Of a stretch of 64,000 bases of DNA, positions 2,288 to 54,401 are shown in pieces. Position numbers and translations under genes: made by a program. Position 1 is the stretch's first letter. Each line of letters opens with the position of its first letter. Origin of the DNA: an uncultured Chloroflexia bacterium (GTDB taxonomy: Bacteria; Chloroflexota; Limnocylindria; Limnocylindrales; CSP1-4); the NCBI GenBank assembly GCA_963812745.1, contig CAWEWE010000004.1, forward strand, positions 332,734 to 396,733, given 5' to 3'. The notes under the pieces are model-generated. The model ran no database searches. It was given only the letters and a program-made list of their open reading frames with translations, and was not told the origin of the DNA.

Positions 2288-3462
2288 CCGACGACGCGGT
2301 CGACGCCGCGCTTCTCCAACGCCCGGGCGATGATCAGCCGCTGGATCTCGGACGTGCCCTCCCAGATCCGGTCGACCCTGAGCTCGCGGAAGAACCGCTC
2401 GGCGGCCGTCTCGCGCATGTAGCCGCGACCGCCGAACACCTGCACGACGCGGTCGGCGCAACGGAACGCCGCTTCCGACGCGAACAGCTTGGCGAGCGAC
2501 GCCTTGGCGTGGACGACCTTCGGGTCGGCGCCCTCGTCGGCGAGGACAGCGGCCTCGCGCGTCAGCAGCCGGGCGGCCGACGCGTCGGCGGCAGAGTCGG
2601 CCAGCGGGAAGGACACGCCCTGGAAATCGAAGATGCGCTCGCCGAACTGGACCCGCTCGACCGCCCAGTCGACGGCCTCGGTCAGCAGCCGCTCCATCGC
2701 GCCGGTGCAGCGGGCGCCGATGTGGATCCGCTCCTCGACGAACCACTCGTTGGTGAGCTCATCGGCCTGGCCGACACCACCGAGGACCGCGGAGGCATGG
2801 ACCCGGACCCCGTCGAGCACGAACTGCGGATGGCGGTCCGCGAAGGTGTGCATGTAGTCGGGATCGTGCTTGAGGGTCACGCCCGGCGTGTCGTAGTCGA
2901 CCAGGAACAGCGTCGGCCGGCGGTCGTCGCCGTCGATGACGACGCAATGGAAGATCATGAAGTCGGTCTCGTCGGGCGGGCCGGTCACGAACCACTTCTC
3001 GCCGTCGAGGACGTACTCGCCGGTGTCGGCATCGCGCACGGCGGTCGCCTCGAGTGCCCGGGCGTCGGAGCCGGCGCCCGGCTCGGTGACCGCGTAGGCG
3101 CCGAACCGCTCGCCACGGAGGCTCGGCTCGAGATATCGCCGGCGCTGGTCGTCGTCGCAGTGCAGCAGGGCGTTGTAGGCGCCCGGGATGTACGACCAGA
3201 GGCCGCCGGTCGACTGACCGAGCTGCTCGTGGACGAGGACCTGCTCGAGCATCGACCAGCCCTGGCCGCCGACCTCGACCGGCAGCGACCCGCCGACGAG
3301 CCCGGCCTCGATCGATGCGTCGCGGATGGCCGCGCGCTGCTCCGCAGGGATCCGACCGCCCGCGCGCTCGAACTCGACCTCGACCGGCTGGAGGACGTCG
3401 CGTGTGAATCGACGCGCGCGCTCCTGGAGCTTGAGCTGGTCCGGGCTCAGCGTCAGGTCCAC
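2284..3462 (-). CDS. acyl-CoA dehydrogenase
   Basis: C-terminal ACAD motifs (RIWEGTSEIQRLIIARAL, YAVTEPGAGSD). A GTG start (VDLTLSPDQLKLQERARRF) lies at 3460-3462, with an alternative GTG at 3480. The track ORF 2284..4773 fuses it artefactually with the upstream surface-protein frame. Confidence 0.8.
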   Translation of the reverse strand: MDLTLSPDQLKLQERARRFTRDVLQPVEVEFERAGGRIPAEQRAAIRDASIEAGLVGGSLPVEVGGQGWSMLEQVLVHEQLGQSTGGLWSYIPGAYNALLHCDDDQRRRYLEPSLRGERFGAYAVTEPGAGSDARALEATAVRDADTGEYVLDGEKWFVTGPPDETDFMIFHCVVIDGDDRRPTLFLVDYDTPGVTLKHDPDYMHTFADRHPQFVLDGVRVHASAVLGGVGQADELTNEWFVEERIHIGARCTGAMERLLTEAVDWAVERVQFGERIFDFQGVSFPLADSAADASAARLLTREAAVLADEGADPKVVHAKASLAKLFASEAAFRCADRVVQVFGGRGYMRETAAERFFRELRVDRIWEGTSEIQRLIIARALEKRGVDRVVG

Positions 3463-3530
3463 GCGCCAAGGATGGCGCACAGGATGGGCCGGCTCCGCGC
3501 GTCGTCGCAGGGCGCGGGACGGCGGACATG

Positions 3531-3561
3531 GAAGAGGGCCGGTCGGCGACCGGCCCTCTTC
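3531..3561. terminator. perfect 14-bp inverted repeat hairpin GAAGAGGGCCGGTC-ggc-GACCGGCCCTCTTC
   Basis: Seen directly in the sequence. It sits between the 3' end of the giant surface-protein gene and the ACAD start. A possible alternative adhesin stop (tca 3579-3581) lies 18 nt before it. Confidence 0.5.
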
Positions 3562-4719
3562 CTGCTCGGCTGCGCTGTTCAGCCGGCGGGGAGGATGTCC
3601 CAGAACGCCTTGTTGGCGATCGACTTGCCGAGTCTTCGGGTCGGCAGATGTGCCCGGGGTGAAGACGCCGCTGTCACCGCCTTCGTTGAAGGCGGCTGCT
3701 TGCGAGGCCGCAAGCTTGATCGCGTTCAGGTTGGTCCCGCAGAACGCGGTCTCCCACGCTGCGAATGATCCGGCGCTCGGCGACGAGCCGAATGCCGAGG
3801 CGTTGAGTTCCGCTGCGATCAGCTGCTGGAGCAGCCGCATCCGAGCTTGATCGATCGAGGAGCGCTTGACGCCCGTGCTCGTCTTGGAGATGTCGGACCA
3901 GAAGGCGCCCATCAACTTGGCCGTTCGTGTCGATGACAGGCGACCGCAAAGGGTGATGTCACCGACGGCGATCGCCACACCCGGGAAGGTGTGCCCACCA
4001 GCAGTCCCACCGAACCAGGCGGCCACGGCGAGGTCGAAGTGCGTCGCCCAGAAGCCTTGTGTCCGGGTCGTGCCGGGACCGGTGTTCTCGAAAACGCAGG
4101 TCACCGTGTCGCCGCTCTTCAAGACGATCGTTGCTGTCTGCGTCGCGAGGTTGCCGAGGCCGGTGCTGCCACCGCTACCGGTGACCGCGCAGTTCAACGG
4201 AGTATTCGGATCCGAGGAGCCCCCGATCCCAGTCAGCACCCAGCCAGCCGGCACGAGCTCGGTGGCGGTGTAGGTGCCGGCCTTCAGGACCTGGGTGTTC
4301 GAGTTGCTTCCGGCTTGACCCGTCAGGTTGAAATCGGCGTAGGCCGGGTTCGTGCCGCCGGCGGCGTCGAAGTTGAACGTCACGGCAGCGCCCGCAGGCT
4401 TGGTGATCTTCTGGATGATGATCGTGCCGCGCTTGTTATTCGTGAACGTGCAGACGATGGTCTCGCCGGCGTCCACGTCCAGGCTGGCCACTGTGGTGAC
4501 GACTGCATCGGCGTCACCGGTGCAGACGATGCTCGCGAGGTCCCAGCCTGTGGGCACGGTCTCGCTGATGGTCTTCGGCCCGAACTCGGTCGGGTCGAGC
4601 GTGTCGATGTGGCTAGACGGCACGAGCAACGAGATCGGATCCGTGTCCAAGTTCTCAGCGACCAGGCCGGTCCCGGTCACCGCGAACTCGAAGTCCTGCG
4701 GATCGCTCGCCGGGTCAGT

Positions 4720-6720
4720 CACCTTCTGGTAGGTGACGGTGGCGTGCTTGGTGTTCTCGAAGGTGCACACCACGGTCTCGCCGGCGTCGATGTCGAGGGT
4801 GGCCGTACGGTGCCGAGCTCGGTGAAGTCGGCGTCACCGGTGCAGTCGAGGGCGGTCAGCGACCAGCCGGCGACGGCCGACTCGATGACGGTATGGGCGC
4901 CGAGCTGGGCGGCGTTCAGGTTGAACGTGTCCTGGCTGGGTAGGGTGGCGTCGCCGGCGTCGGTGTCGAGGTCGAGGTCGGCCGGCACACCGGCGCCGGT
5001 CAGGTCGAAGTCGAAGTCCTGCGGATCGGAGGCCGGGTCGGTGACCTTGACCACCGTCAGGCTGGCGTGCTTGGTGTTCGTGAAGGTGCAGACCACGGTC
5101 TCGCCGGCGTCGATGTCGAGGGTGGCCGTACGGTGCCGAGCTCGGTGAAGTCGGCCCGGCACCGGTGCAGTCGAGGGCGGTCAGCGACCAGCCGGCGACG
5201 GCCGACTCGATGACGGTATGGGCGCCCGAGCTGGGCGGCGTTCAGGTTGAACGTGTCCTGGCTGGGCAGGGTGGCGTCGCCGGCGTCGGTGTCGAGGTCG
5301 AGGTCGGCCGGCACACCGGCACCGGTCAGGTCGAAGTCGAAGTCCTGCGGATCGGAGGCCGGGTCGGTGACCTTGACCACCGTCAGGCTGGCGTGCTTGG
5401 TGTTCGTGAAGGTGCAGACCACGGTCTCGCCGGCGTCGATGTCGAGGGTGGCCGTACGTGCCGAGCTCGGTGAAGTCGGCGTCACCGGTGCAGTCGAGAT
5501 CGGTCAGCGACCAGCCGGCGACGGCCGACTCGCTGACGGTATGGGCGCCCAGCTGGGCGGCGTTCAGGTTGAACGTGTCCTGGCTGGGCAGGGTGGCGTT
5601 GCCGGCGTCGGTGTCGAGGTCGAGGTCGGCCGGCACACCGGCACCGGTCAGGTCGAAGTCGAAGTCCTGCGGATCGGAGGCCGGGACGGTGTCCTTGACC
5701 ACCGTCAGGCTGGCGTGCTTGGTGTTCGTCGAAGGTGCAGACCACGGTCTCGCCGGCGTCGATGTCGAGGGTGGCCGTACTGCCGAGCTCGGTGAAGTCG
5801 GCGTCACCGGTGCAGTCGAGATCGGTCAGCGACCAGCCGGCGACGGCCGACTCGATGACGGTATGGGCGCCCAGCTGGGCGGCGTTCAGGTTGAACGTGT
5901 CCTGGCTGGGCAGGGTGGCGTTGCCGGCGTCGGTGTCGAGGTCGAGGTCGGCCGGCACACCGGCACCGGTCAGGTCGAAGTCGAAGTCCTGCGGATCGGA
6001 GGCCGGGACGGTCTCCTTGACCACCGTCAGGCTGGCGTGCTTGGTGTTCTCGAAGGTGCACACCACGGTCTCGCCGGCGTCGATGTCGAGGGTGGCCGTA
6101 CTGCCGAGCTCGGTGAAGTCGGCGTCACCGGTGCAGTCGAGATCGGTCAGCGACCAGCCGGCGACGGCCGACTCGCTGACGGTATGGGCGCCCAGCTGGG
6201 CGGCGTTCAGGTTGAACGTGTCCTGGCTGGGTAGGGTGGCGTTGCCGGCGTCGGTGTCGAGGTCGAGGTCGGCCGGCACACCGGCACCGGTCAGGTCGAA
6301 GTCGAAGTCCTGCGGATCGGAGGCCGGGACGGTCTCCTTGACCACCGTCAGGCTGGCGTGCTTGGTGTTCTCGAAGGTGCACACCACGGTCTCGCCGGCG
6401 TCGATGTCGAGGGTGGCCGTACTGCCGAGCTCGGTGAAGTCGGCGTCACCGGTGCAGTCGAGATCGGTCAGCGACCAGCCGGCGACGGCCGACTCGCTGA
6501 CGGTATGGGCGCCCAGCTGGGCGGCGTTCAGGTTGAACGTGTCCTGGCTGGGTAGGGTGGCGTTGCCGGCGTCGGTGTCGAGGTCGAGGTCGGCCGTCAC
6601 ACCGGCACCGGTCAGGTCGAAGTCGAAGTCCTGCGGATCGGAGGCCGGGACGGTCTCCTTGACCACCGTCAGGCTGGCGTGCTTGGTGTTCTCGAAGGTG
6701 CACACGATGGTGTCACCGGC
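4720..6720. repeat. six tandem copies of a 321-323 bp coding repeat (107-aa domain) inside the surface-protein gene
   Basis: The motif gatgtcgagggtggccgta recurs at about 4789, 5112, 5438, 5761, 6082 and 6403. The three upstream copies carry 1-nt indels (ggccgtacggtgccgag / ggccgtacgtgccgag versus ggccgtactgccgag in intact copies). Confidence 0.8.
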
Positions 6721-8060
6721 GGCGACCGCGAAGCTGACCCCGTTGGTGATCGGCGTCTCGGTGACGTTGGTGCAGCTGACGCTGGTCAAGCTCCAGCCGG
6801 CGGGCACGTTCTCGACGATCGTCTTGGTCCCGAGCTGGCCCGCGGTCAGCGTGATCACGGTGGTGTTGGCTGTCGTGCCGTCATCGACGAGGTCGATGTC
6901 GCCCGGCATCCCCGACCCGCTGGTGTCGAAGTCGAAGCTGGTCGAGCCTTCGGGAGTGGCCTGCTTGACGACGGTGACCGTGGCGTCCTGGACGTCGATG
7001 AAGGTGCACACGATCGTGTCACCGGCGGCGACCGCAAAGCTGACACCGTCGGTGATCGCCGTCTCGGTGACACCGGTGCAGTCGACGCCGGTCAGCGACC
7101 AGCCGCTCGGCACCGTCTCGGTGATGGTCTTGGTGCCGGCCAGCTGGGCGGCGGTCAGCGTGAACACGATGTCGTTGTCGCCGGGGCCGGCGCCGTCATC
7201 GACGAGGTCGATGTCGGGCCCGATCCCGGCGCCTGTGGCGTCGAAGTCGAAGCTGGTGGCGCCTTCGGGGGTGGCCTCCTTGACCACCGTGACCGTGGCG
7301 TCCTGGCTGTCGTTGAAGGTGCACACGATCGCGTCACCGGCGGCGACCGCGAAGCTGACCCCGTCCGTGATCGGCGTCTCGGTGACATTGGTGCAGCTGA
7401 CGCTGGTCAGTGACCAGCCGCTCGGCACCGTCTCGGTGATGGTCTTGGTGCCGGCCAGCTGGGCGGCGGTCAGCGTGAAGACGATGTCATTGTCGCCGGG
7501 GCCGGCACCGTCATCCACGAGGTCGAAGTCGGCGCTGATGCCGGTCCCGGTGCCGTCGAAGTCGAAGCTCGTGGCGCCCTCGGGGGTGGCCTCCTTGACC
7601 ACCGTGACCGTGGCGTCCTGGCTGTCGTTGAAGGTGCACACGATGGTCGCCCCGGCAACGACCGCGAAGCTGACACCATTGGTGATGGCCGTTTCGGTGA
7701 CACCGGTGCAATCGACGCTGGTCAGGCTCCATCCGGTGGGCACGTTCTCGGTGATCGTCTTGGTCCCGAGCTCCGCGGCGGTCAACGTGAACGACACGTC
7801 GTTGTCGCCCGGGCCGGCGCCGTCATCGACGAGATCGATGTCGGCGTGATTCCGGTGCCGGTGGCATCGAAGTCGAAGCTGGTGGCGCCTTCGGGAGTGG
7901 CCTGCTTGACCACCGTGACCGTGGCACCTTGCGTGTTATTGAACGTGCAAGTGATCGTCTCGCCGTTGTCGAGGTCGAGGGCGGTATTCACCTCTGTGTC
8001 ACCCAGCGAGCTCACGCACGAGACGCTGGACAGCGTCCAGCCGGCCACGGCGTTCTCGGT
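6721..8060. repeat. four to five tandem copies of a ~310 bp coding repeat (second ~100-aa domain type)
   Basis: aaggtgcacacgat recurs at about 6696, 7003, 7317, 7631 and 7935. Encoded units are ..VCTFNDSQDATVTVVKEATPEGATSFDFDATG... Confidence 0.7.
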
Positions 8061-10269
8061 GACGGAGTAGTTCCCCGGCGTCAGCGAGCCAGAGTCGTTC
8101 GACTGCCCATCAGTGAGGCCGAAGTCAGGGTTGGTCCCGGCGTCCCAGCTGGCGACGAAGTCGAACGACTGCGTCGATGCATCAGGGGTCGTCTGCTTGA
8201 TCGTGACGATGTTGCCGGCCGGCGGGATGGCATTTGCTGCCATCTGGTTGTCGCGGCCGCCGGCGAGCTGCGCCGTCGAACAACAGGAATTTGACGTGAT
8301 AGGGCGAGCCTGCGATGCCGCCTGCTCCACCGCCGGTGAGGTTCCACTCGCTCGATAGCGCAACGTGCGCACCGAACCAGAGGCACGACCGAGCAGGTCG
8401 TCGGATCGTTCCCCTTCTTGCACGCACGCGTCGGCTCATTGCCAACGGTGAAGGTGATCGTAATCACCGTCTCGCTGTCGCCGGCGTATGAGCCGCTGGT
8501 CGACGGTGCGGTCGTGCTGGTCATGTTCCCGTTCCGCATCGTGAAGTTGCGGCCGGCGGGCTGGGTGACGCTGTCTGTCGTGAAGATGGCGTGCGTATCG
8601 GGCTGTATCGGCTCTAGATCGTCGGGACCCCAGAGTCGCGCAGCCGGTGATGTCGTCGCAGAGGTCGGCGTCCGTGATCCAGTTTTCCGAAAAGTTCCAA
8701 GTGGTGAGGAAGTCGTACGCGTGATTGCGCCGCCCTTGGTAGTGCCGTACTGGAGCGTGAGCGTGTGGGTGCTACCCGGGAAGCAATCCGGTCAAGCCAG
8801 AGTCGCTGGACGGTGGCGTCGCCCTCGAAATACGTGGAGTTGTTCGCACTTGAGGTTGCCATTGATCCAGTCGCAGTCCGGTATCGCCCGCTGCATACCC
8901 ATCGCCGTCGTCGTTGGCGCACTGGTCGTACGTGCCGATCGACATGTCGGTGAACGCGGTCGTCGCCGTGCCCGAGATGGGGCCGGTAGCGACGACGTTG
9001 TAGTTGGCGACGAACCATGTCGGGAGCTCAAACATGTACGTGATGCTGGCCGGCTCGCTGAGCGACCGGTCGGGTCGCACGTGGCGGGTCCAGGAGCTGC
9101 CGAGCGTCGTCGTTGACAAAGATATGGACGACCTCCCCGGCGGCCCAGTTCGTCCCAGTGAGCGTGACCGTCTCGCCCGGCGGCATAGTCGGCCTTGTCA
9201 CTGGCGATCGTGGGTGGCCCACTCGGGACATATGTCGGGCTGGGCTCGGCGGAGGTCGCCGGCGCGAGCGGCTCGGGGCTTGTGGCAGGCTCGCCCAGTG
9301 GTTGCTGGGTCGCCTGAGGGCTCGGCGCTGGGGTCGGTGACCTCGGTCGGATCGGGCTCGGTCGCACCCGGATCGGTCGTCGCCTCGGGCGCAGGCGTGG
9401 TCTCGGGAGCTGCTGTCGGGTCTGGGGCTGCAGTCGGCTCCGCGACGGGCTCCGGCGTGGGCTCAGGGGTCGGGTCGGGGGTGGGCGCGGGTGTCGGGTC
9501 TGGGGTCGGTTCGGGTGTGGGTCGGCGTAGGCTCAGGCGTCGGATCGGGCGCGACCGCTTCGGCCGGCGCGGCCTCCGGGGGCGCTGCGGGATCGGCCGC
9601 CACGGCGGCGATCGGGATCATGACCGCCCCGATGAACACGGCGATCTGGAACACGACGAGCAGCCGGGAGCCAAGGCGGCCGGCACGGCTCCGCCGTGGA
9701 TCAGGGAACGGCAGCGCCGGCGCGTCCTCCAGGGCTCGCGCGAGATCCTTGTGGAGGATCTCCGGTGAGATGAATCGCCTGGTCCGCCGCGCGCGCTCGT
9801 TCATGATCTAAACCTCCCCAACCCTGCCCGGAACACACGAATGCCACCGTGCCGACGGCACGGTGGCGTCATCTAGCTGTTCCATCCTCGCGGGCACCGG
9901 ACAGCCCCGGCACCCGGCATCCCCTCCGAACCAGTCGCCCAGCAGCAATAGCTGCCTCCCCACTTTTGCCACTAGCGAGGTGACGGATCACGGACCTTGA
10001 CTGGGTGGTCCCGTGAAGGGCATCGCGCTATGGACCTGCGACCGGGCGCGCCCCCCGGCGCTGCGACCTGCTCGCATGGGTGGTGTACCAGCGCACCACC
10101 CGGTACGTCAATACCAGGACCGTGAACTATCCGCCTAGCGTGCAGGTTTGTCGCGAGGTTGACACTCCTGACGCGACGGAGCCGCGAAGTCCGGTATCGT
10201 CGGCGCGGCCCCGGGGGGACGGTCGTCCATCGAACCGGCGGGCTGCCAACGCGGCGTAGCGGAGGGAGT

Positions 10270-11868
10270 GTGTCCTCGAGCACGGACGAGAACCTGGGCA
10301 TCCCGCCGTCCCTGGACCCTGAGGCCGCCGTCGTCGAAGCGGACCAGGGTCGCTCCGCGAATATCAAGCAGATCCGCGGATCCAGCCTGCTCCTGCTCGG
10401 TCGGATGATCGGGCTGGGGCTCGACTTCGTCGCCCAGGTCCTGATCGTCCGCTACCTCGAGAAGACGGAGTACGGCGCGTTCGCGCTGGCGCTGTCGATC
10501 GTGGCGCTCGGGACCACCATCTGCCTCCTCGGCCTCGAGCGGACCGTCGGGCGGTTCGCGCCGATCTACCAGGAGCGCGGCGATCTGGGCCGCATGTGGG
10601 GCACGATCGTCGTGGTCGTCAGCACGGTGATCACGATCGGCCTGGCCCTCGTCCTCGCCGTGTATGCCTTCCAGGGATTGATCGGCGGGGCGGTCGACAA
10701 CGAGCTCGCGCTCTCGATCCTGCTGGTGATGATCGTGCTCTCACCGCTGCAGGCGCTCGACAGCTTGCTGATCGCGCTGTTCGCGACGTTCGGGTCGGCC
10801 CGCTCGATCTTCTTCCGGCGCTACGTCTTCGCCCCGGTGCTGCAGCTGAGCGTCGTGATCGTGCTCATCGCGACCGAGAGCGGCGTGCGCCTCCTCGCCC
10901 TCGGCTACGTCCTCGCCGCGGCCGCGGGCATCGCGTTCTACTTCGTCGTCCTGCTCCGCCTCCTCCAGCGCCAGGGGTTGCTGGCGCACCTGACGCGGGA
11001 CTCGCTCCGGCTGCCGGTCCGCGAGGTGTTCTCGTTCAGCATCCCGCTCCTCGCGTCCGACCTCGTGTTCGTCCTGCGCAGCTCGCTCACGGTCATCCTC
11101 CTGGAGGTCCTGCGGAACACGGAGGAGGTCGCCGAGTTCCGGGCGGTGCTGCCGATCGCGGTCCAGAACATGTTCGTGGCGACGAGCTTCCGCTTCATCT
11201 TCACGCCAGGCGCGTCGCGGCTCTACGCGCGCGGGGACCGGCGCGCGCTCAACGACCTGTACTGGCAGACGGCGACATGGATCGCGATCCTGTCGTTCCC
11301 GGTCTTCGCGCTCTGCGTGGCCTTCGCCGAGCCGGTCGTGGTCCTCCTGTTCGGCGAGCCGTATCGGAGTGCCGGCACGGTGCTGAGCATCCTGTGCATC
11401 GGCTACTACGTCAGCGGCAGCATCGGCTTCAACTCGCTGCTCCTGCGCGTGTTCGGGCGGGTCAAGTACATGGTCACCACGGACCTCACCACCGCGGCGA
11501 TCAGCATCGTGGCGACGGTGTTCCTGATCCGGGCATTCGGGGCGGTCGGCGCCGCGATCGCCACGACCGGCACGTTGATCATCCAGAACGTCCTCTACCA
11601 GTGGGGCATCCGGACCCGAACGACCGTCGAGGCGGTCGACCCGCGCTTCATCCGACCGTATGCGTCGATCTTCATCGGGGCGGCCCTCGCCGTCGCCGTC
11701 GAGCGGCTCCTCGATCCGCCGCTCATCGTCGGCGTGGTGGTGGTCGGGCTGATCTCGCTTGCCGTGCTCGGGATCAACCGCCACGCGCTGCGGGTCCTCG
11801 AGACGTACCCCGAGCTCGGGCGCTTCCCGCTCGTGCGTCGGATCTTCGGTGACCCGTCACCCACATGA
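10270..11868 (+). CDS. polysaccharide/oligosaccharide flippase (MOP/Wzx-like polysaccharide biosynthesis protein)
   Basis: Fourteen-TM-like hydrophobic profile typical of Wzx/MOP flippases. An in-frame GTG at 10270 follows GGAGGGA. The track ORF runs from 10159 with an Arg-rich N-terminal extension that is unlikely to be real. Confidence 0.65.
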   Translation: MSSSTDENLGIPPSLDPEAAVVEADQGRSANIKQIRGSSLLLLGRMIGLGLDFVAQVLIVRYLEKTEYGAFALALSIVALGTTICLLGLERTVGRFAPIYQERGDLGRMWGTIVVVVSTVITIGLALVLAVYAFQGLIGGAVDNELALSILLVMIVLSPLQALDSLLIALFATFGSARSIFFRRYVFAPVLQLSVVIVLIATESGVRLLALGYVLAAAAGIAFYFVVLLRLLQRQGLLAHLTRDSLRLPVREVFSFSIPLLASDLVFVLRSSLTVILLEVLRNTEEVAEFRAVLPIAVQNMFVATSFRFIFTPGASRLYARGDRRALNDLYWQTATWIAILSFPVFALCVAFAEPVVVLLFGEPYRSAGTVLSILCIGYYVSGSIGFNSLLLRVFGRVKYMVTTDLTTAAISIVATVFLIRAFGAVGAAIATTGTLIIQNVLYQWGIRTRTTVEAVDPRFIRPYASIFIGAALAVAVERLLDPPLIVGVVVVGLISLAVLGINRHALRVLETYPELGRFPLVRRIFGDPSPT

Positions 11869-13142: not shown

Positions 13143-13291
13143 GCACTCGGGGTAGGCCCATTGCCGGCGTGCGCCGGAAAACGTCCTGAGGGGATTGAAC
13201 ACGCCTGCCGACAGGCCTACTATCGGCGTCCGCACCATCCGCGAATCCCGGGGGAGGAGCCAGGCCGAGACCGGCCGGAAGGGGGTTCGTC

Positions 13292-16200: not shown

Positions 16201-16484
16201 CGTGACCTTCAGCTTCGAGGGCACGACCGAGAGCTTCGAGGCCGGGACCGGGGCATGGGTCGTTCCTGCCGGCGTACCTGCCGGGCAGCTCACCGAATCC
16301 CAACGATTGGTACCGGACCACGGACGTCGGATTCTCGGAAGGCGCGGTCGTCGGCATGACGCCGACCGATGCCAACTTCCGGACGCTCCACTTCGGGTTC
16401 GGCTTCGAAGGGATCAGCACATCGGCGGAGCGGAACGAGGTGATGTGCCGCGCGATGAACCACCTGGGCATCACCTGCTCATAG
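13292..16484 (+). CDS. secreted zinc carboxypeptidase, peptidase M14 family, with large C-terminal extension; apparent frameshift near 16275-16295
   Basis: Signal peptide MRDRRKSFLATLSTIFLISALLVPVGAGAA. M14 signatures are LQHAREWIGGE (HxxE zinc ligands) and LVSNPDGY. The C-terminal ~70 aa (...PNDWYRTTDVGFSEGAVVGMTPTDANF...HLGITCS*) are in a different frame that ends at TAG 16482-16484. The track ORF continues to 16552 in an Arg-rich frame. Confidence 0.7.
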
Positions 16485-16503
16485 CGTCAGGCGAGCATCT
16501 CGA

Positions 16504-16527
16504 GGGGCCGGCCGCGAGGCCGGCCCT
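16504..16527. terminator. GC-rich hairpin GGGGCCGGCC-gcga-GGCCGGCCC between convergent genes
   Basis: Seen in the sequence between the M14 peptidase (+) and ppk2 (-). It has a GNRA loop and no U-tract. Confidence 0.4.
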
Positions 16528-16544
16528 TCCATGTCCGGCGAGCG

Positions 16545-17366: not shown

Positions 17367-17450
17367 GGCGCACCTCCATGAACGGGTCGGTCGGTCGACC
17401 GGTCGTATCATGCGACCGTACCGCATCGCCTCGCGCAGGAGCGCTCACCG

Positions 17451-18896: not shown

Positions 18897-18924
18897 CGCA
18901 GCCCGGAACCTCGCCGTCGATCGG

Positions 18925-42046: not shown

Positions 42047-43090
42047 TCAGCGAGCGTCGGCCCGATCGGATAGCGCGGTGCGGCTGGGGGTGGGCATGGG
42101 CGCCTCGCAGACACGCCGCAGGACGTCGCTGAGTCGCGCCGTCGCGACCCCGATCACGCTGTCGGCGGCCCCGTAGTAGAGGAGCAGCGTGTCGGCGCTC
42201 TCGTCCAAGGTGACCAGCCGCACGGGAACACCACCCGGCCGACGTCGCCGGTGATCTCGTACGGGGTCGAGGGCCCGAACACCCACTCGTCGGTCTGGTG
42301 CAGGATGGTCGTCGGGTCCTCGAGGTCCAGCAGCGCCAGACCCGCTCGATAGATCGGCCCGTCGGCCGTCGAGTGGACGCCGTGATAGAGGACGAGCCAG
42401 CCCTCGGCCGTCTCCAGCGGGGGCGGACCGAGACCGATCTTGCCGGCATCCCACCAGGCGCCGTCGCGGGCCTCGAGCAGCAGCTGGTGGTCGCCCCAGT
42501 GGCGGAGGTCCGGCGAGTACGAGATCCACATGTGGGCACCGCCGCGCAGCGGCGACGGGCGGTGGATCATCGCCCAGCGTCCGTCGAAGCGGCGAGGGAA
42601 GAGCGCCGCGTCCTTGTCCTCGGGCGGCATGACCGGCCCGAGTCGGCGTGACGCTTCGGAAGTCGGGGGTCATCGCCAGGGAGACGAGCGGCCCACGACG
42701 GCTATAGGCGGTGTAGGCGATCGCCCACTCCTCGCGCTCCGGAAGCCAGGTGAGCCGAGGGTCTTCGCAGCCCCAGATCTCTTCGGCTGAGTGCTCCACA
42801 TCGGGTCGCAGGAGCGGCTCGGGGTCGAAGCGCCAATCCGAGATGCCGTCGGCGCTGCGGGCGACATGCAGCATGGAGATCCCGCGCAGGTCCTCGACGC
42901 GGGTCGAGGAGGACGGTCTCGTTCCCGACCCGGGCAGCGCCCGGGTTGAAGACGGAGTTGGCGGCGATATGGCACGTCGGCCGGCGGTGATGATCGGGTT
43001 CGATGCCGGACCGCTCGAAGAGCTCGGGCGGTCGGGTCCATGGCGCCAGCGCGACCGCCCGCCGCTCGGTGCGGGCGTGCGCGACCCGGT
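42047..43090 (-). pseudogene. GH130-family glycoside hydrolase/phosphorylase, fragmented by at least 3 frameshifts
   Basis: GH130-like segments sit in three frames: ..SVFNPGAARVGNETVLL.., ..EEIWGCEDPRLTWLPEREEWAIAYTAYSRRGPLVSLAMTPDF.., ..MIHRPS...GWLVLYHGV...VFPCGW.. and ..TLLLYYGAADSVIGVATARLSDVL... Confidence 0.55.
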
Positions 43091-43099
43091 GTGCGGATC

Positions 43100-44150
43100 G
43101 CATCGCTCGGATCCGCTCAAGGGCGATCAGCCACATCAACGTCGACTCGGCTCCCTGGTTCGTGTTGACACCCTGCGGCGTGAGGCCATCGAAGCACGCG
43201 CCGCGCTCTGGGACGGCGATCGGCACGTCGCAGATCGTTGTCGCCGAGGAACCACGCATACGCCCGCTCCATCGCGACACGATACCGGTCGTGCTCCGGT
43301 CGCCTCGATGGGCGGCTTCCGCCGCCAGCAGCAGCGCCGTCGCCTCGATCGGTTGCTGGTCGAATCTCGACTTCGTGCCCCCGCGTGGCCACCACCCGTT
43401 GCCGACCGGGTGAGAGATGGCCGGCCGGGTCGGGTCTGCGAGTCGATGAGCCAGTCGAGGACGTCGAGGCCTGCCTGGAGCATCTGGCTCGAGTCGACGA
43501 ACCGCCCAGCGACGATCAGCGCCTGGGCCGGGAGGGCGTTCTCGTAGGTCAGGCGCGATTCAGGCCACGGCCACGCCGACGTCGACGTCCCGCGATCCTG
43601 GAAGATCGATCCGAGCCGGTTCGCCATCAGGCGGTAGGCGAGCGCGGCTCGTGATCGTCGGTGCGCTCCGCATCACGGCCTCGCAGCCCAGCAAGACCGA
43701 CGACTGCGCGCGGAGGGCGCGCAGGCCCTGCGTCGCCGGCAGCGCCTGGAGGAACAAGCGAGGAAGCGGACGCGACCAGGGCAGCGATCCGGGGCTTCCG
43801 CGATCGTCCAGCCGAGCGCGAGCATCGCCCGACCCTGACTGTCCTCGGACGCGGTCCCAGCCAGCCACGACCCGTCGACAGCGTCGGAAGTTGCGGAACC
43901 TGCCGGTCGCGTGATCGAAGGCCTCGTCCAGGAAGCGCATGCCCGGCCATGCACTCGCCGCGACCGCGTCCCAACCGAGCTCACGCTGGTGGAGCAGATC
44001 GACCTGCAGGGCGCGGGCGACGTCATCGGTGCAGTAGCCGTGGGCTGGATCGGGGTCGGCTCCGACGGCGTGCTGCATGATCCCGAGATCGCCAGTGAGC
44101 GCGTCGAGATGCGCCCGGCTCACGGGATGGAGCGGTGCCAGGTCAGGCAT
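43100..44150 (-). pseudogene. glycoside-hydrolase-like protein (possible alpha/alpha-barrel type), fragmented across 3-4 frames
   Basis: ATG 44148-44150 overlaps the GT4 stop (ATGCCTGA). Fragments are MPDLAPLHPVSRAHLDALTGDLGIMQHAVGADPDPAHGYCTDDVARALQVDLL.., ..GSIFQDRGTSTSAWPWPESRLTYENALPAQALIVAG.. and ..GVNTNQGAESTLMWLIALERI... The family assignment is weak. Confidence 0.3.
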
Positions 44151-45310
44151 TGATCGCGGCCAGGACCCCAGCCGGCTCCGCATGCGGCTTCGCCGATCCC
44201 ACCTGTCCGAGCACGCGACCGTACTCGGCGCCGACGGCCGACCACACCATCCGCCGACTGTACGCATAGGCACGCCGCCCGATGGCGGCGCGAAGCCGTC
44301 GTCGCCGAGGACCTGGTTCAGCGCGTCGGCCCAGCGCGGCTGCGGATCCGGCGGGACGAGGATGCCGCGTCCGTTCGCAAGCACCTCGGTAGCGTAGGCG
44401 TACGGCGTCGACACGATCGCCCGGCCCGCACCCATGGCATAGGACAGCGTGCCGGACACGATCTGGTCCAGCTTCGGATACGGCGTCACGAACACATCGG
44501 CCGCCTCGAGCCAGCGGGTCAGCTCGACCCGGCCGACGAAGCGATCCACGAACCGGACGTGGTCGGCCATCCCGAGCCGCTTGACCTGGGCGACGCAGTC
44601 GCTCCCGGTACGCCTCCCCTTCGGTCCGCAGCAGGTCGGGATGGGTAGCACCGACCAGCACATAGAGGGCCGCCGGGTTGGCCGCAACGACTGCCGGCAG
44701 GGCATCGAGGACCAGCTCGTAGCCCTTGCCGGGACCGAGCAGGCCGAAGCTCAGGATGACGTCGCGTCCTGCCAGCCCGAGATCCGTCTTGACCGTCTTC
44801 GGATCGACGAGCGGCAGCTCCGGAACGCCGTGGGGGATGATGTGCAGACGCTGGGGATCGACGCCGTAGACGTTGCGCAGGAGCGTCCCAGCTGACCGCG
44901 ACATCACGACCGTGGCATCGGTTCGAGCGACCAGCTCGGAGAGGACGGCTCGCTGGCCGTCGGTCGGGTCCTGCAGGACCGTGTGGAGCGTCGCGACTGC
45001 GGGGACGCGGAGGGCGTCGACGAAGTCGAGGACGTAGGCGCCGTCGTCGCCGCCCCAGATGCCGTACTCGTGCTGGATCGACACGACGCTGGCACACCGA
45101 TCCAAGCCGCGCGCGACGTGGATGTAGTCGGCGAGCTCATCCCGACGGATCCGATGGTGGACCTCGATGGGATAGGGCAATGGTCTGCGCGGACGGGTGC
45201 AGGGCGACGATCTCGCGACTGCCGGTCGCGGAGGCGAGGTCGTGGGTGAACGACGCGATCCCGCATCGGCGCGGGGGATAGGTGGAAACGAATGCGGTGC
45301 GGGCGATGAC
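44143..45310 (-). pseudogene. GT4-family glycosyltransferase, fragmented by at least 3 frameshifts
   Basis: N-terminus VIARTAFVSTYPPRRCGIASFTHDLA.., middle ..HIIPHGVPELPL...ILSFGLLGPGKGYELVLDA.., then in other frames ..VKRLGMADHVRFVDRFVGRVELTRWLEAADVFVTPY.. and the C-terminus ..LRAAIGRRAYAYSRRMVWSAVGAEYGRVL... Confidence 0.55.
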
Positions 45311-45468
45311 GTGGCTCCTCTCGGCTGATTCGCGTCGCGGGCCCGAACAGGAGGCCGGGCGGTCAGCTCGATCAGCGACTGGGACCGCCCACACGCTGCG
45401 TGCGCTCGGCTGGCGATCCGGTCGCGAAACAGAACGGCCCGTCTGAAGCGACGGGCCGCTATTGGTGA

Positions 45469-45671
45469 CTAGGCGGACCGCACCTGGCTGGCGCGCGGGC
45501 CCTTCGGGCTCGACTCGATCTCGAACTCACTCGCTCGCCGCCGACAAGGCGGTCGAAGTCGATCGACTGATCGAGAGCGCCGCGATGGAAGAAGTATTCC
45601 TTCGCATCCTCGGCGGTGATGAAGCCGAAGCCGCGGTCGGCGACGATCTTCTTGATGGTTCCGGTGGTCAT
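45469..45671 (-). CDS. cold-shock protein (CspA family) with one apparent 1-nt frameshift near 45525
   Basis: N-terminus MTTGTIKKIVADRGFGFITAEDAKEYFFHRGAL (RNP1-like GFGFI). The canonical C-terminus ..EFEIESSPKGPRASQVRSA* is in the adjacent frame (ORF 45469..45924). Confidence 0.7.
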
Positions 45672-49240: not shown

Positions 49241-50881
49241 CAGGGAAGCCCGCGCTCCGTTCGCTGGTTCGCGAAGGCCACCGCGACACCGTTGATCTCA
49301 GCGCCGTGGAGCTTGTTCGTGGCCACGAGATAGGCGTCGAGCGACGCCTCGATGATGTTCGTGCTTAAGCCGTGGCCGGACACGATCAGCGCGCCCGGGC
49401 CCTCATCCGATGAGCGCCGGCAGCGGACCAGCGACCTGGCCCTGGGCATCCTCGCCGGCCGACACCGCCTTGATCTCGTACTCGGTCAGCGTCGGGTGCC
49501 AGCCGAGGACCGGCTGCACCGCGTCGTCGACCGCCTGGAAGAGCGCGTTGACCGGCCCGTTGCCGGTGGCCTCGGCGCTCCGCTCGCGGCCGTCGACCGC
49601 CAGCGTGACGGTCCCGGTCGCGTTGCCGCCGTGCGAGGACGTGACGCTCCAGCCGACGAGCGAGACGCTCGCCGGGACCTCCGACGCTCGCTGCTCGACG
49701 AGCGCGAGGAGGTCGGCGTCGGTGACCTCCTTCTTGGCGTCGGCGAGCTCGATCGCCTGGCGATAGATCGTATCGAGCGCCTCGCCCTCGAGATCGTGGC
49801 CGAGCTCGCGGAGCTTGCCCTGGAGGCCACGCCGGCCCGACAGCTTGCCGATCGTCAGCTGGCTACCGGACAGCCCGACCGACTGCGGGGTCATGATCTC
49901 GTACGTCAGCGGGTGCTTGATGACGCCATCCTGGTGGATGCCCGACTCGTGGGCGAAGGCGTTGCCGCCGACGATCGCCTTGTTGGGCTGGACGGCGAAG
50001 CCGGTGAGATAGCTGACCAGGCGCGATGCTGCGGTGATGTGCTCGGTCTGCACGCCGGAGCCGACGGCCTGGAACTGCGTCGGCCGCGTCCGGAGGGCCA
50101 TCACGACCTCCTCCAGGGACGCGTTGCCGGCCCGCTCGCCGAGGCCGTTGATCGTGACCTCCACCTGGCGCGCGCCGGACTGGACCGCGGCAAGCGTGTT
50201 GGCCGTGGCCAGACCAAGGTCGTTGTGGCAATGGATGCTGACGGTCGCCTGGTCCCCGACGAGATCGACGACGCGCTTGGTGAGCGCCGCGAATTCGCTC
50301 GGGATGGCATAGCCGACGGTGTCGGGGATGTTCACGGTCGAGGCCCCGGCCTCGACGACCGCCTCGTAGACCTGCATGAGGAAGTCGGTGTCGGTGCGCG
50401 AGGCGTCCTCGGCGCTGAACTCGATCTCGGCGTCGCGGCCGAGCTGTTCGCGTCCATAGCGGACCCAGCGCACCGCTTCGGCGAGCGCGGTCTCGCGATC
50501 GACGCGGAGCTTGTGCTTGAGGTGGATGTCGCTGGTGGCGATGAAGACGTGGAGATGCGGTCGATGGGCGATCTTGATCGCCTCGATCGCCCGTTGCGGG
50601 TCACCGTCACGGCAGCGGGCAAGGGCTGCCACGGCGATGTCCTGGGGCGTCTCCTGGGCGATCCGCCGGACCGCCTCGAAATCGCCCGGCGAGGCAGCGG
50701 GGAACCCGGCCTCGATGACATCGACCTTGAGCCGCGCGAGCTGGCGTGAGACCTCCAGCTTCTCGGCCGCGGTCAGCCCGGCGCCGGGCGCCTGCTCGCC
50801 GTCACGGAGCGTGGTGTCGAAGATCCGGACGCTGCCGGCCGGCACGAACGGCCCGGCCGGCCGGGGTACGGGCGCGCTCAC
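49240..50881 (-). CDS. leuA: 2-isopropylmalate synthase with one apparent frameshift near 49440
   Basis: [11 protein letters not shown] and [18 protein letters not shown], then the regulatory domain ..[15 protein letters not shown]... The expected C-terminus (..[23 protein letters not shown]..) is in the adjacent frame (ORF 49240..49449). Confidence 0.8.
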
Positions 50882-52538: not shown

Positions 52539-54401
52539 TCGTCGGCCCCACCCCAGTTCTCGATGAGGTCGGACAGGCCCTTGCCCGCCGGCATCATCGG
52601 GAAGACGTTCTGCTCCTCGGCGATCTCGAACCAGATGAGGGCCGGACCATCGACGCCCTGGGCGAAGCGGATCGCCTCGTCCACCTCGCCCGGGGTCGAC
52701 GCCTTCACGGCTGGGATCCCGAACGCCTCGGCGAGCTTCAGGTAGTCGGGGCCGAGCAGGTGTGCCGAGTGGTAGTTGCCCCCGTAGATGATCTCCTGCC
52801 ACTGGCGGATCATCCCGAGCTTCTTGTTGTCGAACAGGGCGATCTTGACCGGGATCCGGTCCTGGACCAGGGTCATCAGCTCCTGGAAGGTCATCTGGAA
52901 CCCACCGTCGCCGGTGATCGCCCAGGTCTCGCGGTCCGGGCGGCCGAGGGCCGCGCCCATCGCCGCCGGCACGCTGAAGCCCATCGTCCCGAGGCCGCCC
53001 GACGAGACGTGCTGGTTCGGCTCGCGGAAGCCCGTGTAGCGCGCCAGCCACATCTGGTTCTGCCCGACGTCGGCGACATAGGTCGCCCGGTGGTCGCTCA
53101 GCTCGCCGATGCGCTGCACGACGTAATCGGCCGACAGGAGCCCGTCGCGCCACGCCCCGGAGCCATGCCATGACGACGACTCGGAGTCGCGCCGCCATTC
53201 GGCGAGCTGATCGAGGTACTCAGCGCGGTCCGCCAGCGGCGTCTCGGGGACCATGCGGGTGAGTGCCTGCGAGGACGCGCTTGGCGTCGCCCACGATGGG
53301 CACCTCGACCGCGACGTTCTTGCCGATCTCGGCGGGGTCGATGTCGGCGTGGACGATCCGCGCATACGGGGCGTAGGTGCGCACGTTGCCGGTGACGCGG
53401 TCGTCGAAGCGCATGCCGATGGCGATCAGCAGGTCGGCCGACTGGATGGCCCGGTTGACGTGCTTCCAGCCGTGCATGCCCATGTAGCCATACGCCAGCG
53501 GGTGGGTCTCGTCCATGGCCCCGATGCCGAGCAGCGTCCACGCCACCGGGATCGAGGTCTTCTCGGCGAACGCGCGCAGGTCGTCCCAGGCCTCGGCGTG
53601 TAGCACCCCGTGGCCGGCCAGGATGACCGGGCGCTTGGCGGCCGCGATCTCGGTCACCGCGGTCTTGAGCTGGCGGCCGTGCCCCTCGAGGTTGGGCCGG
53701 AAGCCGGGCAGGCCCGCGACGACCTCCTCGTCGGTCGGATGTTCGGCGCGGGTCTCCTGCTGGAGCGCGTCCTTGGTGATGTCGATGTGGACCGGGCCGG
53801 GCCGGCCGGTCCGCGCGATATGGAACGCCTCGGCGACGACCCGCGGCAGGTCGTTGGCGTCGCGGACCAAGTAGTTGTGCTTGGTCATCGGCAGGGTGAT
53901 GCCGTTGATGTCGATCTCCTGGAAGGCATCCTTGCCGATCAGCGCCGCAGGCACGTTGCCGGTGATCGCCACCATCGGGACCGAATCCAGGAGGGCCGTC
54001 CCGATGCCAGTCACGAGGTTGGTCGCGCCCGGCCCGGACGTTCCCATACACACGCCGACGCGACCCGTGACGCGGGCGTAGCCGTCGGCCGCGTGGGCGC
54101 CGCCCTGTTCGTGGCGGACGAGGACGTGGCGGAGCTCCGGGTAGTCGCCGAGGACGTCGTAGAGGGGCAGGATGACGCCGCCGGGGTAGCTGAAGAAGAC
54201 GTCGACGCCCTGGCGAAGGAGCGCTTCACACAGCACGTCGGCACCGATCCGCGTGCGCTTGAGGTCGCGTGCCTCGTGGAGCATGTCCTTGCGGGCCTGC
54301 TCGACGGCCGAGGCGTGCACCGACCCGTCGCCGGGCACGTGGCTGCGACGCGGTCTCGGCGCCGGACTCGGCGGTTTCTCGGGATCGGTCCTGATCGTCA
54401 T
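52535..54401 (-). CDS. ilvB: acetolactate synthase large subunit with one apparent frameshift near 53250-53290
   Basis: N-terminal and middle TPP-enzyme domains lie in ORF 53220..54401 (GADVLCEALLRQGVDVFFSYPGG...). The C-terminal TPP-binding domain lies in ORF 52535..53365 (..GLGTMGFSVPAAMGAALGRPDRETWAITGDGGFQM..). Confidence 0.85.

What the first reader, a model, noticed from the sequence alone, without database searches (positions are those of the whole stretch)
3579..9804. Giant repeat adhesin-like gene riddled with frameshifts in and outside its tandem repeats
A 6.2 kb gene encodes an N-terminally anchored protein with a Pro-rich stalk, at least 10 tandem two-Cys beta-sandwich domains (six 321-bp and four to five ~310-bp units) and a unique C-terminal domain with no sortase motif. 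At least eight single-nucleotide indels break the frame; three fall at the same position of consecutive repeat copies. Possible explanations are assembly collapse or polishing errors in repeats, a decaying pseudogene, or slipped-strand/recombinational phase variation between repeat copies. The true C-terminus is ambiguous: an alternative stop at 3579-3581 sits neatly 18 nt before a perfect 14-bp terminator hairpin.
Basis: seen in the sequence. Interest (0 to 1): 0.6.

Follow-up and report, generated by a model that had tools for sequence, protein, structure and literature searches.

The report
Adhesin gene broken by assembly errors
A real 6.2-kb gene for a giant repeat-rich cell-surface protein looks shattered by about 20 frameshifts, but these are most likely consensus errors of a long-read metagenome assembly in a stretch that varies between strains, so the finding is ordinary.

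Summary
The minus-strand gene 9804->3579 changes frame about 20 times, not 8.

The frameshifts are most likely assembly artefacts.
- They are nearly all insertions (15 of +1, 4-5 of +2), mostly outside homopolymers, and no in-frame stop is needed in the repaired frame.
- A sister strain, 99.6-99.9% identical over about 54 kb of flanks with only 4 indels, carries the same gene broken at mostly different places. Parts broken here are intact there, and the reverse.
- A second cluster of about 20 frameshifts lies in the only other strain-variable segment (42.1-45.5 kb).
- Single +1 insertions of the same type break ilvB and leuA here but not in the sister strain.
- Homologues from short-read assemblies are in one frame.
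- Selection between the two alleles is purifying (pN/pS 0.15).

A real pseudogene or phase variation is unlikely. Re-mapping the reads remains the decisive test. Interest is low.

The parts
3579..9804 (-). Whole gene. After removal of 20 frame-breaking indels it reads as one 2,071-codon ORF from ATG 9804 to TGA 3581-3579.
   Evidence: Three-frame map; codon-usage dynamic programming; homology-guided frame map; repaired protein has no stop and 13 SpaA_4 matches, E=6e-153.
9595..9804 (-). N-terminus: Arg-rich segment plus a single hydrophobic helix (residues ~47-70). It is a signal-anchor or a long signal peptide.
   Evidence: Translation; hydropathy maximum at residues 47-51; 100% identical to the sister strain.
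9237..9594 (-). Pro/Thr/Glu/Asp-rich linker with two +1 frame changes (~9525 and ~9310; exact base not assignable).
   Evidence: The sister strain stays in frame through the first site.
8230..9236 (-). Conserved ~330-aa N-terminal domain with no Pfam match. It is broken by 10 frameshifts at about 9181, 9103, 8878, 8850, 8800, 8775, 8727 (+2), 8636, 8384 and 8265; all the others are +1.
   Evidence: Frameshift-aware protein-to-DNA alignment to P0001, P0003 and P0010. Junction sequences. DNA alignment to the sister strain. The AF2 model of homologue P0002 is all-beta, pLDDT 86, with only weak pilin-like matches.
7800..8229 (-). First, unique SpaA_4 domain. One frame change at ~7847 (-1 or +2) falls at its junction with the 315-bp repeats.
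   Evidence: Pfam; junction.
6655..7925 (-). Four ~315-bp repeats (SpaA_4 domains). They are intact here and frame-broken in the sister strain.
4740..6725 (-). Six 321-bp repeats (SpaA_4 domains). U1-U2 are intact. There are six insertions: ~5727 (+1, at the very end of U3), ~5453 (+1), ~5227 (+1), ~5157 (+2), ~5131 (+2) and ~4808 (+2).
   Evidence: Unit spacing is 321, 321, 322, 322, 326, 323 bp, and units were aligned. Several insertions read as both variants of a between-copy difference written one after the other (CTG/CTC -> CTCG; GAG/ACC -> GACG). The sister strain has four of these repeats intact.
4131..4755 (-). Two further unique SpaA-like two-Cys domains, both in frame.
   Evidence: Pfam SpaA_4 and SpaA_3.
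3579..4130 (-). Conserved helical C-terminal domain (TRTQGFWATH...FWDILPAG*). A +1 frameshift sits between ...SADPKT and GKSIANK (~3640), and the true stop is 3579-3581.
   Evidence: 235 homologues at 60-79% identity, all reading through the tail in one frame. L002 full-length homologue ends SYWNVLP*. SNPs against the sister strain are synonymous in the respective frames on both sides of the shift. AF2 pLDDT 86, no PDB match.
3530..3562 (-). Perfect hairpin (16-nt arms) 16 nt downstream of the true stop. It is a likely terminator without a U-tract.
42073..45533 (-). Second dense cluster of about 20 frameshifts, outside the finding, in cold-shock, GT4 glycosyltransferase and GH130 genes. It lies inside a strain-specific replacement island (41.1-45.8 kb).
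   Evidence: Codon-usage DP calls about 20 shifts here and 0 in four control genes. Repaired GH130 matches Pfam positions 31-316 of 320 and CSD 2-65 of 66. Synteny with the sister strain breaks at 45817 and near 41120.
53269..53269 (-). Single +1 insertion (not in a homopolymer) that splits ilvB (acetolactate synthase large subunit) into two ORFs in this assembly only.
   Evidence: Sister-strain protein residues 1-377 and 378-621 match two different frames here.
49434..49434 (-). Single +1 insertion (not in a homopolymer) that cuts off the last ~60 codons of leuA in this assembly only.
   Evidence: The lost tail is present in the alternative frame and is identical to the sister strain.

Best explanation
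The gene is real and most likely intact in the organism. It encodes a 2,071-aa membrane-anchored surface protein. A Pro/Thr stalk is followed by a conserved all-beta head domain, 13 SpaA-type (prealbumin or Cna-B-like) two-Cys beta-sandwich domains forming a long rod, and a conserved helical C-terminal domain. By architecture it is inferred to be an adhesin or envelope fibre.

The roughly 20 frameshifts are consensus errors of a long-read metagenome assembly. The contig names and the related records point to a Flye-type assembly that was not polished with short reads, but that is inference. The locus is hypervariable between co-occurring strains. The reads piled up there are heterogeneous, or the particular allele has very low coverage, so polishing left or created indels at roughly one per 150-300 bp. 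The rest of the contig carries about one per 15-20 kb.

What is shown: where the indels are, what type they are, and how they compare with a sister strain and with homologues. What is inferred: the sequencing platform and the exact step at which the errors arose.
For: 1. **Localisation.** The sister-strain contig (ena:ERZ25039588:contig_5600; loci L007, L008, L011, L014) is collinear with about 54 kb of the window at 99.6-99.9% identity, with only 4 indels. The only two segments that differ between strains are the adhesin (3.6-9.8 kb) and a replacement island (41.1-45.8 kb). They hold about 40 of about 43 frameshifts (P=1e-27).
2. **Same error type in housekeeping genes.** ilvB (53269) and leuA (49434) are each broken here by one +1 insertion outside a homopolymer. 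Both are intact in the sister strain, and the downstream protein sequence is preserved in the shifted frame. A third strain's contig (L009, L010) has AcrB and aconitase split, with 27 gap openings in 18 kb.
3. **Largely different breaks in the two strains.** The sister strain has about 11 frameshifts in the N-terminal domain, mostly at other positions, and broken 315-bp repeats. Its C-terminal 840 codons are intact and include four 321-bp repeats. Here the 315-bp repeats and U1-U2 are intact, while the end of U3 and U4-U6 are broken.
4. **Indel spectrum.** There are 15 of +1, 4-5 of +2 and no certain deletion. Of 10 reference-verified +1 events, 9 are not homopolymer extensions. In the repeats the insertions read as both between-copy variants written in series.
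5. **No sign of decay.** No stop is needed in 2,071 repaired codons. All 24 invariant columns of the N-terminal family are kept. pN/pS against the sister allele is 0.15 over 370 codons. Downstream of the shared C-terminal shift, 3 of 5 differences are synonymous and 2 are conservative in the shifted frame.
6. **Intact homologues in short-read assemblies.** Homologues in short-read MAGs are single-frame (L001-L004, L006), and L002 is a complete 1,201-aa ORF. In other long-contig assemblies they are shattered into small same-strand ORFs (L005, L012, L013).
7. **A matching dataset exists.** The Microflora Danica long-read project, to which the closest GTDB relative L005 belongs, is Nanopore-only. 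[quoted passage not shown]
Against: - No reads could be examined, so coverage and heterogeneity at the sites are inferred.
- At least three frameshifts are shared by both assemblies: GGACTGC at 8878, ACTCGGC at ~3640, and GGCACGTACGG in one repeat. That needs either a systematic, context-dependent error or the same allele mixture in both samples. It would be the natural outcome if those indels were real.
- An excess of insertions outside homopolymers is not the textbook Nanopore error profile, which is deletions in homopolymers.
- I could not confirm that the source contig belongs to the Nanopore project. The accession was not found because no supplementary files are held.
- No closely related allele (>90% identity) that is fully intact was found in any collection.
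Confidence: 0.8

Rival explanations
1. Real, recently inactivated pseudogene. The strain has lost this adhesin, and the same holds for the GT4/GH130 island, with indels accumulating under relaxed selection.
For: The frameshifts are in the deposited sequence. At least three are shared with the sister strain. Large surface-protein genes and accessory islands are common targets of gene loss. No fully intact close allele was found.
Against: - Twenty indels occur with no nonsense codon, and all family-invariant residues are kept.
- pN/pS is 0.15.
- The bias is to insertions, whereas bacterial pseudogenes are biased to deletions (established knowledge: Mira, Ochman and Moran 2001).
- The indels are strongly clustered, with 3.3 kb of the gene clean (P=3e-7).
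- The two strains have 99.6% identical flanks but largely different sets of breaks.
- The expected number of neutral indels at 0.4% divergence is a handful at most.
- ilvB and leuA carry the same kind of lesion.
Confidence: 0.1
2. Real within-population heterogeneity produced by an active process. Recombination among repeat copies or between alleles (antigenic or phase variation) means some cells truly carry out-of-frame versions, and the consensus mixes them.
For: - The locus is a mosaic of identical patches and patches of 65-70% identity between two strains with near-identical flanks.
- pS is 0.096 inside the gene against about 0.004 in the flanks.
- Repeat copy number differs: the gene is 617 bp shorter in the sister strain.
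- Hybrid sequences occur at positions where repeat copies differ.
Against: - No homopolymer or short tandem repeat lies at the shift sites.
- No silent cassette or paralogue is present in the 64-kb window.
- Thirteen of the 20 shifts lie in unique sequence.
- An unrelated, non-repetitive island shows the same frameshift density.
- Recombination between in-frame alleles does not by itself create +1 insertions.
Confidence: 0.07
3. Expression through programmed frameshifting or transcriptional slippage of a gene that is truly out of frame.
For: The coding signal is maintained in every successive frame.
Against: - Twenty shifts of two kinds occur with no shared slippery motif.
- Homologues are single-frame.
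- The sister strain shifts at other positions.
Confidence: 0.01

Closest known systems
SpaA-fold / Cna-B-type repeat surface proteins of Gram-positive bacteria (pilins such as BcpA and SpaD; MSCRAMM B-repeat stalks)
   Same: There are 13 tandem SpaA_4 (PF24514) prealbumin-like two-Cys beta-sandwich domains forming a rod. The head-domain model gives weak structural matches to BcpA and SpaD. The gene carries highly similar tandem DNA repeats.
   Different: - It has no LPXTG sorting signal or C-terminal hydrophobic tail.
- It is anchored, or exported, through an N-terminal hydrophobic segment.
- The ~330-aa head domain and the ~165-aa helical C-terminal domain have no Pfam family, and the C-terminal domain has no PDB match.
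- The hosts are Chloroflexota-type MAGs, not Firmicutes or Actinobacteria pathogens.
Residual indel errors in long-read-only metagenome assemblies, concentrated where strains differ
   Same: - Dense frame-breaking indels are confined to strain-variable segments of an otherwise clean long contig.
- Isolated indels break housekeeping genes.
- Sister assemblies break at different positions.
- Short-read assemblies of homologues are in frame.
   Different: The spectrum here is dominated by +1 and +2 insertions outside homopolymers. A few errors recur in two assemblies. The platform and the polishing history of this contig could not be verified.
Hypervariable surface-protein loci shaped by recombination and repeat copy-number change
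   Same: Alleles are mosaic, and synonymous divergence is about 25-fold higher than in the flanks. Repeat number differs between strains, and selection on the protein is purifying.
   Different: No donor cassettes, invertase, reverse transcriptase or slippery tracts were seen in the window. Nothing indicates an active switching mechanism.

Membership tests
SpaA_4 (PF24514) prealbumin-fold repeat proteins | Significant matches to the SpaA_4 profile above Pfam's gathering score | tested here: met
   Repaired protein: 500 bits (cut-off 27.3), 13 stretches. The best stretch covers profile positions 1-107 of 107. Also found in the unrepaired 771-aa ORF.
Sortase-anchored LPXTG surface proteins / pilins | C-terminal LPXTG-type motif followed by a hydrophobic stretch and a basic tail | tested here: not met
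   No LPXTG-like motif lies near the C-terminus and the only loose match is IPPAG at residue 526. The protein ends ...KAFWDILPAG. The only hydrophobic segment is N-terminal.
Sortase-anchored LPXTG surface proteins / pilins | Sortase gene in the locus | tested here: not met
   None of the 20 neighbouring genes scanned against Pfam is a sortase. The rest of the genome could not be examined.
Uncharacterised family: conserved all-beta head domain + SpaA-type repeats + helical C-terminal domain ending FWDxLP | Full-length homology of both terminal domains to family members | tested here: met
   - N-terminal domain: 133 hits, best 61-64% identity at 99% coverage, with 24 invariant columns kept.
- C-terminal domain: 235 hits, 60-79% identity at 99-100% coverage, with 66 invariant columns among 13 sequences.
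- The full-length homologue in L002 has the same order of parts.
Bacterial pseudogene (true gene decay) | Disabling mutations of several kinds (nonsense as well as indels), relaxed selection, and lesions shared by close relatives | tested here: not met
   Only indels are seen and no stop is needed. pN/pS is 0.15. Most lesions are not shared with a strain whose flanks are 99.6% identical. Three shared lesions keep this from being fully excluded.
Slipped-strand (contingency-locus) phase variation | Frameshifting indel within a homopolymer or short tandem repeat tract in the coding region | tested here: not met
   The junction sequences show insertions flanked by different bases. TRF finds only the long domain repeats and the Pro-rich 12-24-bp periodicity.
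Assembly or consensus artefact | Indels not supported by the underlying reads | not testable with these tools
   No reads are available. The indirect tests all point this way: localisation to strain-variable DNA, the same lesion type in ilvB and leuA, different breaks in the sister assembly, and in-frame short-read homologues.

The most novel reading that the evidence does not exclude
The messy consensus may be reading out real, extreme within-population diversity at this adhesin locus. In that case the head domain and repeat array are actively diversified, by recombination among repeat copies or with alleles or cassettes elsewhere in the genome, fast enough that co-occurring cells with identical flanks carry alleles only 65-70% identical in patches. 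That would make it an antigenic-variation-like system in an uncultured soil Chloroflexota-type lineage.
Probability: 0.08. Interest if true: 0.55.

Novelty: not a real feature. Interest (0 to 1): 0.12.

Why it matters
The practical value is as a warning. In long-read-only metagenome assemblies, dense frameshifts can pile up in strain-variable genes, here a giant adhesin and an accessory glycosylation island. Annotation pipelines then report them as pseudogenes or as strings of small ORFs. That biases estimates of gene loss and hides large surface proteins.

The underlying gene is an ordinary new member of the SpaA-fold repeat surface proteins. Its only mildly interesting features are two conserved terminal domains, widespread in Chloroflexota-type MAGs, that have no Pfam family; the C-terminal one also has no solved structural relative.

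Tried and rejected
- **Uniform sequencing error.** Rejected as the whole story. Ten neighbouring genes give full-length Pfam matches, and the collinear 54 kb has only 4 indels against the sister strain.
- **Repeat collapse alone.** Rejected, because 13 of the 20 shifts lie in unique sequence.
- **Homopolymer slippage, biological or technical.** Rejected for most sites after inspecting the junctions.
- **'Both SNP alleles written in series' as a proof.** The reading fits nearly every +1 site and is directly visible in the repeats. For unique sequence I judged the codon-position argument too permissive to count as proof, since two thirds of random insertions would fit it.
- **A shared methylation-type motif (CCGG, GACT, CTCGG) at the sites.** Suggestive at best. 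It is not distinguishable from base composition, and it would predict genome-wide errors.
- **Paralogues or silent cassettes in the window.** None found by tblastn or blastn.
- **Finding the source genome or an intact close allele.** The GTDB representatives gave 6 loci, the best 69% identical and itself frame-broken. Protein searches gave nothing above 64% (N-terminal) or 79% (C-terminal) identity.
- **Exact look-ups.** Look-ups of the window's ACAD, flippase and the 771-aa fragment found no indexed contig.
- **Linking accession ERZ25039588 to the Microflora Danica paper.** Failed, because no supplementary files are held.
- **NCBIfam on the fragments.** Nothing relevant.
- **Canonical terminator scan.** Found nothing, although a perfect hairpin is present.

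Full report
**1. What is in the sequence**

The region lies in DNA of about 68% G+C and holds one long minus-strand gene.

- **Start.** It begins at ATG 9804 with an Arg-rich segment and a single hydrophobic helix (residues ~47-70).
- **Linker.** A Pro/Thr/Glu/Asp-rich linker follows.
- **Repeats.** Tandem Repeats Finder reports 6.2 copies of a 321-bp unit (4740-6725, 97% matches) and 4.1 copies of a 315-bp unit (6655-7925, 83%). Pfam identifies them as SpaA_4 prealbumin-like fold domains (PF24514), with seven in the one long intact ORF, 5482-7797.
- **Frame changes.** GC3 frame plots and three-frame translation show that the coding signal jumps between frames many times.

**2. Counting and placing the frameshifts**

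The 321-bp units are spaced 321, 321, 322, 322, 326 and 323 bp apart. Aligning them shows six insertions:

| Position | Size | Unit |
|---|---|---|
| ~5727 | +1 | very end of U3 |
| ~5453 | +1 | U4 |
| ~5227 | +1 | U5 |
| ~5157 | +2 | U5 |
| ~5131 | +2 | U5 |
| ~4808 | +2 | U6 |

Three fall at the same position of consecutive copies: GGCA[C]GTACG in U4 and GGCA[CC]GTACG in U5 and U6.

Outside the repeats I stitched the frames together and searched the product. The N-terminal ~330 aa has no Pfam family. It does match 133 proteins at up to 61-64% identity over 99% of its length. The frame changes therefore interrupt a conserved domain.

tblastn, inspection of the junctions and a frameshift-aware protein-to-DNA alignment against three homologues all agree on ten shifts in this domain. 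They lie at about 9181, 9103, 8878, 8850, 8800, 8775, 8727, 8636, 8384 and 8265. Nine are +1 and one is +2.

Four more shifts complete the set:
- Two in the linker, at ~9525 and ~9310.
- One at ~7847.
- One near the C-terminus, at ~3640.

The total is 20, and the frame arithmetic closes on the stop at 3579-3581.

The repaired protein is 2,071 aa with no stop, 13 SpaA_4 matches (E=6e-153), 13 Cys pairs and no LPXTG motif.

**3. The true C-terminus**

The C-terminal ~165 aa (TRTQGFWATH...) matches 235 proteins at 60-79% identity. All of them read ...FTPGTSADSKTAKSIA..FWDxLP* in one frame. A complete 1,201-aa homologue in a Bacillota MAG ends SYWNVLP*.

A perfect hairpin with 16-nt arms (3530-3545 / 3547-3562) starts 16 nt after it. 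The long ORF that appears to fuse the adhesin to the downstream acyl-CoA dehydrogenase (2284-4773) arises only because that wrong frame lacks a stop.

**4. Are the frameshifts real? Comparison with a sister strain**

Exact protein look-ups show that the window comes from an 810-kb contig. Near-identical proteins sit on other very long contigs.

The orthologous locus of one of them, ena:ERZ25039588:contig_5600 (1.35 Mb), was fetched in four overlapping pieces. Outside two segments the two assemblies are collinear and nearly identical:

| Window stretch | Mismatches / identity | Gaps |
|---|---|---|
| 1251-3600 | 8 mismatches | 0 |
| 9805-23143 | 51 mismatches | 1 |
| 19828-40675 | 99.87% | 1 |
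| 45817-64000 | 99.59% | 2 |

Inside the adhesin gene the two are a mosaic of identical stretches and stretches of 65-70% identity, with dozens of indels. The sister gene is 617 bp shorter.

The sister copy is also frame-broken, but mostly elsewhere:
- It has about 11 shifts in the N-terminal domain, mostly at other positions and with a mixed ins/del spectrum.
- Its 315-bp repeats are broken, whereas they are intact here.
- Its last 840 codons are intact, including four 321-bp repeats, whereas the end of U3 and U4-U6 are broken here.

At several of our sites the sister has exactly the in-frame sequence. Examples are GCC-CCG at 9181, GC-CGG at 9103, TGG-TTG at ~8800 and GGC--AAG at 8727.

**5. 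The same lesions elsewhere in the window**

A codon-usage dynamic programme calls no frameshift in four control genes. It calls about 20 on the minus strand between 45.5 and 42.1 kb. After repair the products match GH130 (31-316 of 320), a cold-shock domain (2-65 of 66) and GT4 glycosyltransferase profiles.

This cluster lies wholly inside the only other segment where synteny with the sister strain breaks, a replacement island at about 41.1-45.8 kb.

Two of the four isolated indels between the assemblies are +1 insertions in our contig, and neither is in a homopolymer:
- The insertion at 53269 breaks ilvB. Sister residues 1-377 and 378-621 match two different frames here.
- The insertion at 49434 breaks leuA. 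The last 60 aa survive in the other frame, identical to the sister.

A third strain's contig has still more indels, with AcrB and aconitase split.

Frameshifts run at about 3.7 per kb in strain-variable DNA and about 0.06 per kb elsewhere (P=1e-27).

**6. Signs of decay are absent**

- The repaired frame needs no nonsense codon.
- All 24 invariant columns of the N-terminal family alignment are kept, and conserved residues run right up to each junction.
- Over 370 aligned codons of the C-terminal part, our allele and the sister allele differ at 27 synonymous and 12 non-synonymous codons. That gives pN/pS 0.15 and pS 0.096, against about 0.004 divergence in the flanks.
- Downstream of the shared C-terminal shift, the five differences are three synonymous and two conservative in the shifted frame, and all non-synonymous in the unshifted one.
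- The indels are nearly all insertions, 15 of +1 and 4-5 of +2. This is the opposite of the deletion bias of bacterial pseudogenes (established knowledge).
- The indels are strongly clustered, with 3.3 kb of the gene clean (P=3e-7).

**7. Family-wide pattern**

Homologues in short-read MAGs are in a single frame through the N-terminal domain (L001-L004, L006), and L002 is complete. In long-contig assemblies the family is repeatedly shattered:
- L005, a Microflora Danica MAG and the closest GTDB relative at 69% identity.
- L012, from the same ERZ250395xx series.
- L013, a 398-kb JGI contig.

The Microflora Danica long-read study used Nanopore reads only, Flye, and one round of Medaka. It names microdiversity as a limiting factor (PMC12313526). 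I could not prove that our contig belongs to that study.

**8. Explanation adopted**

The gene is real and probably intact. The frameshifts are consensus errors of a long-read metagenome assembly, concentrated where co-occurring strains differ. There the reads are either heterogeneous or thin for the particular allele.

In the repeats several insertions are visibly both between-copy variants written one after the other (CTG/CTC -> CTCG; GAG/ACC -> GACG). That is what a mixed pile-up would produce.

Confidence is 0.8. The main reservations are these:
- No reads were seen.
- The insertion-rich spectrum outside homopolymers is not the textbook Nanopore profile.
- At least three indels are shared by both assemblies (8878, ~3640, one repeat). 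That requires a context-dependent error or the same mixture in both samples.

**9. Rivals**

| Rival | Confidence | Why it fits poorly |
|---|---|---|
| True pseudogene | 0.10 | The points in section 6 and the largely different breaks in the sister strain |
| Real heterogeneity from recombinational or phase variation | 0.07 | No slippery tracts and no cassettes in the window, and an unrelated island shows the same density |
| Programmed frameshifting | 0.01 | Single-frame homologues exclude it |

**10. What the protein is**

By architecture it is a membrane-anchored or secreted surface fibre. It has an N-terminal anchor, a Pro/Thr stalk and an all-beta head domain. The AF2 model of a homologue has pLDDT 86 and gives only weak pilin-like matches at TM ~0.25. 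A rod of 13 SpaA-type domains follows, then a conserved helical C-terminal domain (pLDDT 86) with no PDB match.

It works like the stalk-and-head adhesins of Gram-positive bacteria. It is not a member of the sortase-anchored class, because the LPXTG motif was tested for and is absent. An adhesive function is inference from architecture only.

**11. Verdict**

The anomaly, a gene riddled with frameshifts, is most likely not a biological feature. The underlying gene is an ordinary new member of a known kind. Interest is low, at 0.12. Positions 49434 and 53269 are convenient internal controls.

Noticed in passing
window 42073-45533 (minus strand), inside 41120-45817: A second dense cluster of about 20 frameshifts in cold-shock, GT4 glycosyltransferase and GH130 genes. 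It lies wholly inside a strain-specific replacement island that is absent at this position in the sister strain.
   Followed up: yes
window 53269 and 49434: Single +1 insertions outside homopolymers split ilvB (acetolactate synthase large subunit) and cut off the last ~60 codons of leuA in this assembly. Both genes are intact in the sister strain.
   Followed up: yes
window 16281: A one-base difference from the sister strain near the 3' end of the M14 carboxypeptidase gene (1086 aa here, 1063 aa there). I did not determine which assembly is right.
   Followed up: partly
window 39097-39174 (+): A c-di-GMP-I-GGC riboswitch (65 bits, E=4e-13) sits between a DUF5317 gene and the 3' end of a minus-strand PadR gene. 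No clear plus-strand gene lies directly downstream. GGDEF-EAL genes lie just upstream (32.7-38.4 kb).
   Followed up: no
window 3579-4130 and proteins P0170-P0289: The C-terminal ~165-aa helical domain (TRTQGFWxTH...KRSxLDQARMQLLQQLLAAELN...FWDxLP*) is a large, well conserved family. It has 235 hits and 66 invariant columns among 13 sequences, but no Pfam model and no Foldseek match in the PDB. It always follows SpaA-type repeats at the very C-terminus.
   Followed up: partly
window 8230-9236; loci L001-L006: The N-terminal head domain (motifs YDQCxND, CxWxNGNL, GTTKGGKHAYDFLT, GSPYH, RDNQM) has no Pfam model. It occurs in MAGs labelled Chloroflexota, Bacillota, Acidobacteriota (Pyrinomonadaceae) and Gaiellaceae.
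   Followed up: partly
L009 / L010 (ena:ERZ25039547:contig_69725): The contig of a third closely related strain has 27 gap openings in 18 kb against the window, and its AcrB and aconitase genes are split. It ends inside the M14 peptidase gene, about 3.5 kb short of the adhesin gene.
   Followed up: partly
window 2284-4773 (minus strand): The 829-aa ORF that seems to fuse the adhesin C-terminus to the acyl-CoA dehydrogenase exists only because the wrong frame has no stop here. The sister strain has TAG where this contig has CAG.
   Followed up: yes
window 4740-7925 versus L007 2366-6100: Repeat copy number differs between the two strains, and the gene is 617 bp shorter in the sister strain. The frame-broken 'T-type' 321-bp units sit at opposite ends of the array in the two assemblies.
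   Followed up: partly
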